From contig CM022671.1 of assembly GCA_012295275.1 (NCBI GenBank), forward strand, positions 14,942,001 through 15,006,000: a stretch of 64,000 nucleotides of DNA, written 5' to 3'. Below are positions 27,248 to 30,200 of the stretch, in pieces (positions within the stretch are counted from its first letter, which is position 1; each line of letters begins with the position of its first letter). The DNA is from Chrysomallon squamiferum. Taxonomy: Eukaryota > Animalia > Mollusca. Both the position numbers and the translations under genes were made by a program. Below the pieces are notes generated by a model that was not told where the DNA came from, searched no databases, and saw nothing but the letters and a program-made list of their open reading frames with translations.

Positions 27248-30200
27248 TTAGCGTCCTGTAAGACAGCAATCAAAATAAGATTTTGTTTTTGTTTTTATAA
27301 GTATTTTCTTTTTCAGATTTATCTGAGTTATATATTTTGATTCATGAGTTTTATTTTAAAAATAAAATATTTACTATATTATCAGACAGTTACTCAAGCA
27401 GATTGATCTCTTTGATAAGTTAACATTCTTTATTTATTTATTTTTTTTATTATCTTTTTCTTTTCCTTTTTTTTTACCTGCTGCTTACAAAAAAAATAAT
27501 ATATATAAACAAATAAAAATAAATAAATAAACTGAAAAAAAATATTGAAACTGCAGAATTATTGAAAAAGGTTATTAAAGTCATCATATCTAGAAATTAA
27601 TATACAAATTTAAATTTACAAAATCAAATATTCTGCATAAAAATAAAACAAAAAATGCATTGTCAACGAATAATTTACTTACAACATTATCCAAATTCAG
27701 TACATAGACTAAAATTGATTTTAAATAAATAAATATGCTGGGAGTTAAATACCTTCTTTTGGTTTTTTCTCTATATTGAGTGTCTCCTGATAAATCAACT
27801 CTTTTAATCTCTCTTTAGGAAGATCATCTAGTTCCATCTCAAATGTGAATGGTTCTTCAGCAACAGGCTAAAATACAACAGTAACTTTTTCAGCAATTCC
27901 ATTTTAGGATTTTATGCTACATAGTTAAAATAGTGAAGTATCAAAACACTGAATATTTCTAACATTAAATACATTAGATAGTCTGAGAGCCTGAGAGAGA
28001 GAGAGAGAGAGAGAGAGAGAGAGAGAGAGAGAGAGAGAGGAGAGAGAGAGAGTGTGTGTGTGAGAGATAGACTGTATTTCCTGTTATTAAATTTATAAGA
28101 AAATATATTATTCAAAATTAATCTTACAACAGTTAATATACCGATTCATTTCTTAACCCATAACATGTGAACTTACCTCATCAGCTGGTTCATAGTACTG
28201 CTCCAGATACGGATGTGCCAAGGAATCTTCAACATTTATTCTTTTGTGTGGATTGAAAGTCAGCATCTTATCAAGAAGATCCAAAGCTATAACAAATCAA
28301 TCAATAAAAATAATATTCATAAGTATTTTTCTTATCAGGCTATTCATTATTCTGGTCTTCAAAGCAGTATTCAAGTAACTGTAAATGAAACAATGTTCTT
28401 AAAACATACCCTTTGGATCAGCATTGGGGAACAGTCGAGTCCATGGAACTTTAGGTTTGAAAGGCAACGAAACGATATAGCCACGAGCCTGAAAAAAAAG
28501 AAAAAGAAATAGATTTATTAATATTCTTTTTCTTTATTATTAAATGTTACTGAAAAACAACTACTGATTTTATCTTGCTTGTTTAATTTTATCATCTTTT
28601 ATTACTAACATATTTAAATAATCTTTTACTATAAAATATCCATTCACAATGATTGTTAAATTTATTTGCATTGTATTTTCTACAACTATTTGTAATATTG
28701 ATTTCTGTCCACATTGAATGATAGAATTTCAACAGTTTAGTCACACATATAATTTTTAAAGATAATCAAGAATGTACATGAATAATTCAAATTGAATAAA
28801 AAACAACTTTTGAATTGTTTAATAATCATTATCTAATCTGTCTCTAAGTAAATGAAAAATTAAAATAAGCAACACGAAATAAATTAAATGGTTTACAATT
28901 CAACATGAAGAATCTTTGTAGAGAACAAATTTATTACTTCATTATTAAAAATAACATACATGCCAATATATATAATACATATAAGCAATCATTAAAATAA
29001 TAACAATAAAAATATTGACTGCCAAACAAATATTAAAATAATTACAGCGACAACATTTAAACAATTCTGAACACAGCCTAAGTAATAAAAGCACTAAAAA
29101 TGAAAAAGTAAGAGATAAAAGACACCCCAAAAATCATTCAAATGTATCTTCTAAATCATGTATTTACTTCTTAAATTTCTTTTAAAAGTTTGCATTCATC
29201 ATTAATTCTAAAACTTGTTAAAAGAAGTGAATCCCAATTTTGGGTTTAATTTTGTTTGATTTCATTTCCAGTGTACCTTTTCATTGAGAATACAGTCAAT
29301 GTCTTCTGTACACGGTGATCCCAAGAGGTCAAGGATACGATTCAACTGATCAAGATCTAGGTTAGTTAAGGAACAGTGACACATGTACCAGGCATGCAGG
29401 AAAGGAATGGATTTATATGACTAACACTACAGAATATCAACTGAAATCTCTGTAATAATCAAATAATATCACTGAGTGAGGAACTTTCTGCATTCTTTTT
29501 TCTTTTCTTAAATCAATGCTTAGGGAGCAAATGCAAACAATTTTTTTTTTTTTTAATTTGACCACAAACTGAAACTTTTATGGAATAAAGCAAATAAGCA
29601 GATTATCAGGAAAAACTGCAAACAGTCTGCTGAAATAATGTAATGCAATGAAAAATGCTTGAAATTTTGATAATACGAAATTTCTTTTTCTAAATATTAA
29701 TATATGATTACCATCAATTAACTTTTCATTTTCCACATGAAAGAAATAAAAGAATTATACTGTCAGCTTTTTCTACATCTACATAATGTGCAAGGTTTCA
29801 GTGATAAACAAATTTAATGTAAAATAAAATTAACAATACAACCTCTATTCATCTTTTATACTAATTTTAATTTTATGTCAGTCAGTTGTACAAGTATTTG
29901 GTGAAATGAAAGAAATTAAAAATCAAGAGATGTGATATAACTTAGATTAAAACAAATAATAATCTATGACTCAAGAATTACTGCTGTGGTAAATCTATAA
30001 ACAAAACAAAAATTCAGTTTTCTTAAGGCACATTAGAAACAAAACATGGCACCAAATGGAAAATAAAAATAAAATAAAATAAAATAAAAAGGAAAGAAAC
30101 CCATTAATAAGTACATGTATATATAAAAAGATCCACCTAAAAATATAAAATCTAGAAATTAAAGGACAGACAACACAAATCATACCACTTTTAAATAAAA

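What the first reader, a model, noticed from the sequence alone, without database searches (positions are those of the whole stretch)
29277..29356. ERK exon 7b removes the SPS nuclear-translocation motif (SPS to SPC) while keeping DEF-docking residues
Seen: 7a encodes [27 protein letters not shown] and 7b encodes [27 protein letters not shown]. Established: in mammalian ERK the SPS motif in this segment is a CK2-phosphorylated, importin-7-binding nuclear translocation signal, and the YL..L residues contribute to the F-site (DEF) recruitment pocket. JNK carries GTPC at the same position. Inference: isoform b keeps YLDQL but loses the S-x-x-D CK2 serine, gains a cysteine and has H>R and G>D charge changes. 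It may be a cytoplasm-retained or redox-sensitive ERK with altered partners.
Basis: partly seen in the sequence, partly recalled or inferred. Interest (0 to 1): 0.8.

Follow-up and report, generated by a model that had tools for sequence, protein, structure and literature searches.

The report
Snail ERK with two swappable exons
A snail ERK kinase gene has two copies of one exon that its RNAs use one at a time, likely locked apart by a rare minor-spliceosome intron as in JNK; the copy lacking a mammalian nuclear-import serine appears to be the commoner one, and crabs and oysters lack that serine too, so it likely tunes partner binding rather than trapping ERK in the cytoplasm.

Summary
Exons 7a (30545-30466) and 7b (29356-29277), minus strand, are 80-nt duplicates in a single ERK gene of a snail close to Gigantopelta aegis; 7b reads SPC for SPS. 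RNA contigs carry 7b in 4 of 4 runs and 7a in 3 of 4, never joined to each other; 7b appears the major form (about 70% where both occur). Gigantopelta has both isoforms in RefSeq. The cytoplasmic-retention idea is weak. Residue 246 is not Ser/Thr in 37 of 220 fetched ERKs, and SPC is the only form listed for crabs, shrimps, isopods, mites and pearl oyster; a crab has nuclear phospho-ERK. Best reading: a lineage-restricted, convergent exon switch that retunes the alphaG/MAPK-insert docking surface. No protein-level or localisation evidence exists here. New variant of a known kind; interest 0.45.

The parts
27753..37412 (-). ERK1/2-type MAP kinase gene, coding exons 1-10: 37412-37285, 34288-34162, 34015-33960, 33325-33136, 32826-32694, 32194-32123, 7a or 7b, 28488-28410, 28286-28177, 27867-27753 (a short last coding exon likely starts at 27255)
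   Evidence: 352/362 and 353/362 residues identical to Gigantopelta aegis ERK isoforms X2 and X3
32123..32194 (-). Exon 6 (72 nt), the positional equivalent of the exon that JNK genes duplicate
32115..32122 (-). U12-type 5' splice site GTATCCTT shared by both routes (exon 6 to 7a or to 7b)
   Evidence: exon 6-7b joint seen in RNA contigs
30554..30562 (-). U12-type branch site TTCCTTGAC, 10 nt before the 7a acceptor
30466..30545 (-). Exon 7a (80 nt), SPS form, S244-P-S246 at 30507-30499; U2-type donor GTGAGT follows
   Evidence: spliced in runs X2, X3, X4; 25/26 identical to Gigantopelta X3
29357..30465 (-). Hybrid intron between 7a and 7b (1,109 nt): U2-type donor, U12-type branch site and acceptor; predicted unspliceable as such
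   Evidence: no 7a-7b joint in 4 RNA runs
29365..29373 (-). U12-type branch site TTCCTTAAC, 10 nt before the 7b acceptor
29277..29356 (-). Exon 7b (80 nt), SPC form, S244-P-C246 at 29318-29310; weak U2-type donor GTACAC follows
   Evidence: spliced in runs X1-X4; 24/26 identical to Gigantopelta X2
28410..28488 (-). Exon 8, common downstream exon with a U2-type acceptor (19 of 20 pyrimidines, no U12 branch motif)
   Evidence: joints to both 7a and 7b

Best explanation
Exons 7a and 7b are an 80-nt tandem duplicate pair in a neomphaline-like snail ERK gene that RNA contigs show spliced one or the other, with 7b apparently the commoner; the choice is likely locked by minor/major spliceosome incompatibility, and the swap likely retunes the alphaG/MAPK-insert docking surface rather than blocking nuclear entry. 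Shown: exon 6 ends in a U12-type donor, both copies carry a U12-type branch site, both end in U2-type donors, and exon 8 has a U2-type acceptor. Inferred: the minor spliceosome picks one of the two acceptors; 7a-to-7b and 6-to-8 would each need a U2 site paired with a U12 site, and either product would also shift the frame. Inferred origin: duplication of the ancestral single exon 7 together with its U12 branch site, which gave exclusivity at once. Inferred function: the exon encodes helix alphaG, the SPS loop and the start of the MAPK insert, the surface used by F-site substrates, MAP2K and phosphatases. Isoform b keeps the core (L232, L235, S244-P, D249, C252) and changes surface charge and one phosphosite, so it is predicted to be a full kinase that still reaches the nucleus, with altered partner affinity or kinetics and no CK2 input at residue 246.
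For: RNA: a 1,131-nt contig joins exons 9-8-7b-6 in X1 (depth 286.7). Equal-length 124-nt arms for 7b and 7a have depths 61.8/23.1 (X2), 64.4/32 (X3) and 60.8/26.7 (X4), a 7b share of 0.73, 0.67 and 0.69. The joint table lists no 7a-7b and no 6-8 joint. Splice signals: of 5,924 AG sites on both strands of the window, 3 have TCCTTRAC 8-25 nt upstream, and they are the acceptors of exons 6, 7a and 7b; 3 of the 5 GTATCCTT are ERK donors. Ancestral state: 22 of 22 metagenome loci hold one exon 7; all 15 that include exon 6 have a GTATC[C/T]T donor; 9 span exon 6 to exon 8. Conservation: 7 of the 9 a>b changes are identical in Gigantopelta X3>X2; 7b differs from its orthologue at 2 of 26 against 8 of 336 elsewhere (Fisher p=0.16). 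Precedent: the JNK hybrid intron (PMC1874599, PMC3584512 passages) and the 80-nt p38-alpha alternative exon at the same boundaries (PMC8373072 supplement), whose isoforms are said to differ in activity and substrate specificity (PMC1431701 passage). Surface role: PMC4459106 and bioRxiv 2022.07.04.498667 passages. Tolerance of S246 loss: 37 of 220 fetched ERKs.
Against: All four RNA runs are assembled contigs from one study; the tool warns that contig depth measures expression poorly and drops rare variants, so the ratios and the missing 7a-7b joint are soft. No test of minor-spliceosome dependence, translation, localisation or binding was possible. The metagenome pattern required a U12 branch motif, so those loci were selected for it, and many are near-duplicates of a few animals. 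The 220 proteins are not independent, and two of the three searches were seeded with 7b, which enriches SPC. S/T at 246 with D/E at 249 still holds in 182 of 220, so the site is mostly conserved. In Neohelice, training-induced ERK activation was seen only outside the nucleus, which would fit weaker import of SPC-type ERK. Frame shift with decay could explain exclusivity without the hybrid intron.
Confidence: 0.65

Rival explanations
1. One reading: isoform b cannot be CK2-phosphorylated at 246, binds importin-7 poorly and acts as a cytoplasm-biased ERK, so exon choice sets the nuclear/cytoplasmic balance of signalling.
For: The mammalian model ties SPS phosphorylation to importin-7 binding. 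7a keeps SPS and 7b keeps SPC in two species. Crab learning activated only extra-nuclear ERK.
Against: b appears the major form and is alone in X1. SPC or another non-phosphorylatable residue stands in the only listed ERK of many animals. Crab nuclear extracts contain phospho-ERK, and nuclear activation followed beta-amyloid. S244-P remains. Other import routes are cited in the same reviews.
Confidence: 0.15
2. The two exons are close to functionally redundant: a duplication that was harmless because the U12/U2 layout made it exclusive from the start, with each copy held by ordinary purifying selection and drifting among residues tolerated in ERKs.
For: All but one of the 7b residues occur in other ERKs (R237 in 11, D240 in 6, C246 in 18 of 220, counts that include Gigantopelta X2; I250 only there). 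R237 with an acid at 240 occurs in coral ERKs. Both forms are co-expressed in 3 of 4 runs.
Against: Both copies and 7 of 9 differences persist between two species, and synonymous sites between the copies are far diverged (9 of 17 same-residue codons differ); a redundant copy would be expected to decay. X1 shows only b, a hint of regulation.
Confidence: 0.2
3. The new Cys246 is the point of isoform b: it replaces phospho-control by thiol control (oxidation, persulfidation or S-acylation) next to the conserved Cys252.
For: Human C254 (C252 here) is S-acylated and affects serine phosphorylation (bioRxiv 2021.11.05.467491 passages). Cys at 246 recurs in decapods/isopods, mesostigmatid mites, Pinctada and 7b, and in JNK1/3. 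That peltospirid snails live at sulfide-rich vents is recalled.
Against: Ser to Cys is a one-base change from AGC/AGT, so recurrence is expected; G, K, T, N and D are tolerated at the same place; no modification data.
Confidence: 0.1
4. The pair is an ancient protostome duplication, and SPC-type ERKs of crustaceans, mites and Pinctada are surviving 7b copies rather than convergent substitutions.
For: 7b matches Pinctada at 21 of 26 and shares C246, D251, L254 and E256 with it.
Against: 7a matches Pinctada at 20 of 26 and Portunus at 21 of 26, against 19 for 7b; R237 and D240 are absent from those ERKs; listed ERKs of 9 other gastropod species show only SPS-type exons; 22 of 22 metagenome loci have one copy.
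Confidence: 0.07

Closest known systems
p38-alpha (MAPK14) CSBP1/CSBP2 mutually exclusive exon
   Same: Same 80-nt exon with the same boundaries in the kinase fold (after the FPGxxH motif, before ARxY), covering alphaG and the start of the MAPK insert (against 46).
   Different: Different MAPK subfamily; the p38-alpha event is dated to Vertebrata in the PMC8373072 table, so the snail event is likely independent. Whether the upstream p38-alpha intron is U12-type was not tested.
JNK1/2/3 exon 6a/6b with a U12/U2 hybrid intron
   Same: Tandem duplicate exons beside a U12 intron at the same position in the kinase, with an unspliceable hybrid intron between them.
   Different: Mirror image: JNK duplicates the 72-nt exon upstream of the U12 intron (hybrid = U12 donor, U2 acceptor); the snail ERK duplicates the exon downstream (hybrid = U2 donor, U12 acceptor), so regulation must act on competing U12 branch sites rather than on a polypyrimidine tract.
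Gigantopelta aegis ERK isoforms X2 (XP_041348896.1) and X3 (XP_041348897.1)
   Same: Orthologous 7b and 7a isoforms, 97% identical over the protein.
   Different: Automatic RefSeq annotation only; I found no paper discussing them.
Mammalian ERK1/2 nuclear translocation signal (SPS)
   Same: 7a has the motif and the CK2-type acid at +3; both exons keep S244-P.
   Different: 7b has Cys at 246. Human MAPK1 and MAPK3 do not occur in the PMC8373072 table of tandem-exon substitutions (0 hits).

Membership tests
ERK1/2 subfamily MAP kinase | TEY activation loop and overall identity to ERK1/2 | tested here: met
   TEY at 32766; exon peptides hit ERK2/ERK1 structures; 97% to Gigantopelta ERK
Tandem-duplicated mutually exclusive exons | Adjacent homologous exons of equal length and phase | tested here: met
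   80 nt each, 54/80 nt and 17/26 aa identical
Tandem-duplicated mutually exclusive exons | Transcripts use one or the other, not both or neither | tested here: met
   6-7b-8 in 4 of 4 RNA runs, 6-7a-8 in 3 of 4, no 7a-7b or 6-8 joint; contigs only
Tandem-duplicated mutually exclusive exons | Both exons conserved in another species | tested here: met
   Gigantopelta X3 25/26 and X2 24/26
Tandem-duplicated mutually exclusive exons | Both isoforms detected as protein | not testable with these tools
   no proteomics available
JNK-type U12/U2 hybrid-intron exclusion | Intron between the alternative exons carries one U2-type and one U12-type end | tested here: met
   GTGAGT donor at 30465 and TTCCTTAAC branch site at 29373-29365; reverse polarity to JNK
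JNK-type U12/U2 hybrid-intron exclusion | Flanking intron is actually spliced by the minor spliceosome | not testable with these tools
   consensus matches and conservation of the donor in 15 of 15 loci with exon 6 only
JNK exon 6a/6b event itself | Duplicated exon is the 72-nt exon upstream of the U12 intron | tested here: not met
   exon 6 is single in the window; the downstream exon is the duplicated one
p38-alpha CSBP1/CSBP2 event | Same exon position and length | tested here: met
   80 nt, same boundaries
p38-alpha CSBP1/CSBP2 event | Common descent of the duplication | tested here: not met
   p38-alpha event dated to Vertebrata; other animals' ERK loci have one exon 7; 7a and 7b are both ERK-like
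p38-alpha CSBP1/CSBP2 event | U12-type intron upstream of the p38-alpha pair | not tested
   not found in the passages read
ERK nuclear translocation signal (SPS) | S-P-S with CK2-type acid at +3 of the second serine | tested here: not met
   met in 7a, not in 7b
ERK nuclear translocation signal (SPS) | Motif required for nuclear import in invertebrates | tested here: inconclusive
   absent from 37 of 220 fetched ERKs; crab nuclear phospho-ERK present but not induced by training

The most novel reading that the evidence does not exclude
One ancient U12 intron in MAP kinase genes is a hot spot that has independently spawned self-locking mutually exclusive exons in all three classical subfamilies (JNK upstream; p38-alpha and this snail ERK downstream; possibly spider and zebra-mussel ERK too). 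In peltospirid-like snails the dominant ERK has traded the CK2/importin-7 phospho-switch for a cysteine-controlled, JNK-like alphaG surface, chosen tissue by tissue through competing U12 branch sites.
Probability: 0.15. Interest if true: 0.75.

Novelty: new variant of a known kind. Interest (0 to 1): 0.45.

Why it matters
It gives ERK1/2, which lacks such an event in the human catalogue, the same exon swap as p38-alpha and a mirror image of JNK's minor-spliceosome lock. That is a clean case of convergent splicing evolution at one intron. It offers a natural isogenic pair, a and b, for testing how much the SPS/CK2/importin-7 signal matters, and the survey shows that many invertebrate ERKs lack the second serine, which limits how general the mammalian model can be. 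It is also a rare natural example of choice between two U12 acceptors.

Tried and rejected
No whole genome is held for this window, so a second ERK gene in this animal could not be excluded. Run X5 covers 7a as unspliced sequence but shows no cover over 7b; the tool says a hole proves nothing, so it is not used. The absence of a 7a contig in X1 may be assembler loss and is only a hint of regulation. Rejected: 7b as a pseudo-exon or assembly artefact (spliced in RNA; orthologue in RefSeq). Rejected: SPC as a marker of 7b orthology (see rival 4). Physella X1 and X2 do not differ in exon 7 but by a 5-residue insertion near exon 2/3. Breadth among gastropods is poorly sampled: only 15 of 94 members of the main cluster were listed. 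Literature searches that found no description of an ERK exon-7 pair. Term searches in the main texts of PMC9741552, PMC7954323, PMC11347168 and PMC2831892 gave 0 hits for MAPK; their supplements and minor-intron databases were not seen and could list this intron, and most subscription journals are not searched. Earlier notes of this scan held only an unrelated Naegleria ERK. No structure or complex prediction was run: at this identity to ERK2 it would not separate the rivals.

Full report
Observation. The window holds one ERK1/2-type kinase gene on the minus strand, ATG at 37412. Either alone keeps the frame; both or neither give a premature stop (one search had exon 6 one base too long, corrected). 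No third copy lies in the window. In rat ERK2 numbering the changes are H237R, G240D, V241L, S246C, S247T, L250I, S251D, I254L and D256E. The closest protein is Gigantopelta aegis ERK, 352/362 and 353/362 identical, a peltospirid gastropod; I infer the window comes from a related snail.

7b is real. In contigs of four RNA runs from one study, 7b is joined between exons 6 and 8 in all four. 7a appears in three, with equal-length arm depths of 61.8/23.1, 64.4/32 and 60.8/26.7 for b/a; X1 has only a b contig. The joint table shows no 7a-7b and no 6-8 joint. Contig depth is a rough measure, so 'b is major' is likely rather than proven, and translation is not shown. RefSeq lists both isoforms for Gigantopelta (X2 = 7b, X3 = 7a), and 7 of the 9 a>b differences are identical there, including SPC.

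How exclusion likely works. Exon 6 ends in GTATCCTT, and both 7a and 7b have a TTCCTTRAC branch site 10 nt before the acceptor; I recall these as the U12 consensus motifs, and PMC3584512 (passages) names the 5' site and branch point as the defining U12 features. Only 3 of 5,924 AG sites in the window have this branch motif, and they are the acceptors of exons 6, 7a and 7b. Both copies end in U2-type donors, and exon 8 has a pyrimidine-rich U2 acceptor. The 7a-7b intron is therefore a U2-donor/U12-acceptor hybrid. In 22 of 22 metagenome loci found with a branch-site-plus-exon pattern there is one exon 7; all 15 that include exon 6 have the U12-like donor, and 9 span exons 6 to 8. The ancestral state is thus likely one exon behind a U12 intron. 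These loci were selected for the branch motif and are partly redundant.

Comparison with known systems. Vertebrate JNK genes use a U12-donor/U2-acceptor hybrid intron for exon 6a/6b exclusion (PMC1874599 and PMC3584512, passages). The supplement of PMC8373072 (rows read) shows the JNK exon is 72 nt and corresponds to exon 6 here. The p38-alpha alternative exon is 80 nt with the same boundaries as 7a/7b; the events are dated to Chordata and Vertebrata, and MAPK1/MAPK3 are absent from that table. The snail case is therefore a likely independent event in a third subfamily, positionally the p38-alpha exon and mechanically the mirror of JNK. PMC1431701 (passage) states that the p38-alpha isoforms differ in activity and substrate specificity. 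The segment forms the F-site pocket (PMC4459106, passages) and, in p38-alpha, the MAP2K-binding surface (bioRxiv 2022.07.04.498667, passages).

Does SPC mean cytoplasmic retention? Of 239 fetched proteins, 220 had a readable segment: 146 SPS, 25 SPT, 18 SPC, 11 TPS, 9 SPG, 4 SPK and 7 other; 37 lack Ser/Thr at 246 while 182 keep the CK2-type pattern. The set is redundant (140 distinct segments, 7 of them SPC) and partly seeded with 7b. SPC stands in 15 of 15 listed members of a 38-member cluster (Portunus, Eriocheir, Penaeus, Procambarus, Macrobrachium, Panulirus, Petrolisthes, Armadillidium, Varroa, Galendromus) and in Pinctada; scallops, Saccostrea, Capitella and Pieris have K, E or G. I saw no SPS alternative for these species, though 23 cluster members were not listed. 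In the crab Neohelice a single phospho-ERK band is in both cytosolic and nuclear extracts, and nuclear activation followed beta-amyloid, although training activated only extra-nuclear ERK (PMC10321408, passages). Its ERK sequence was not seen; Eriocheir, in the same family, has SPC. Together with b being the likely major form, this makes strict retention unlikely; slower or differently regulated import stays open. Notably 7b moves towards JNK1/3 at three places: basic 237, acidic 240 and Cys 246 (compared by eye).

Breadth and novelty. Listed ERKs from nine other gastropod species (Haliotis asinina, two Patella, Lottia, Pomacea, Babylonia, Batillaria, Physella, Bradybaena) show only SPS-type exons. 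The pair may be restricted to Neomphalida, but sampling is thin. Six paper searches found no description of an ERK exon-7 pair; supplements of most papers and minor-intron databases were not seen. The scan's earlier notes hold nothing comparable.

Verdict. Observation confirmed; interpretation partly supported. This is a real, expressed, conserved mutually exclusive exon pair, likely locked by U12/U2 incompatibility and likely tuning the docking surface. It is a new variant of a known kind, interest 0.45.

Noticed in passing
window 29338-29327, minus strand, inside exon 7b: The R237-I-L-D240 codons spell GTATCCTTGAC, at once a perfect U12 donor and a U12 branch-like motif; 1 of only 5 GTATCCTT in the window. 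No joint uses it in the RNA contigs. It could be chance or a decoy that biases exon choice.
   Followed up: partly
window 27480-27478, minus strand: Candidate 3-nt microexon (CAG) between exon 10 and the last exon: inclusion turns the C-terminus from ...EGR into ...EAGR, matching the one-residue difference between Gigantopelta X3 and X2. Not checked in reads.
   Followed up: partly
protein P0128 (Oedothorax gibbosus gene model): A spider ERK model contains two different exon-6-like segments in tandem, the JNK-type side of the same intron; possibly an unannotated mutually exclusive pair.
   Followed up: no
protein P0003 (Dreissena polymorpha gene model): A zebra-mussel ERK model repeats a 53-residue block equal to exons 7 plus 8, with SPT in one copy and SPS in the other; possibly another duplication starting at the same acceptor, or an annotation artefact.
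   Followed up: no
window 33959, 32693, 32122, minus strand: This ERK gene has three U12-type introns (3, 5 and 6), two of them consecutive.
   Followed up: partly
crustacean, mite and bivalve ERKs (P0002, P0004, P0102-P0115, P0093, P0096, P0175, P0205): The second serine of the mammalian SPS signal is absent from the listed ERK of whole groups of invertebrates (SPC, SPG, SPK), which bears on how general the importin-7 signal is.
   Followed up: partly
window 63730-62386 minus, 59552-59181 minus, 56536-56003 minus, 23353-23847 plus: Long open frames that look like exons of neighbouring genes; not identified.
   Followed up: no
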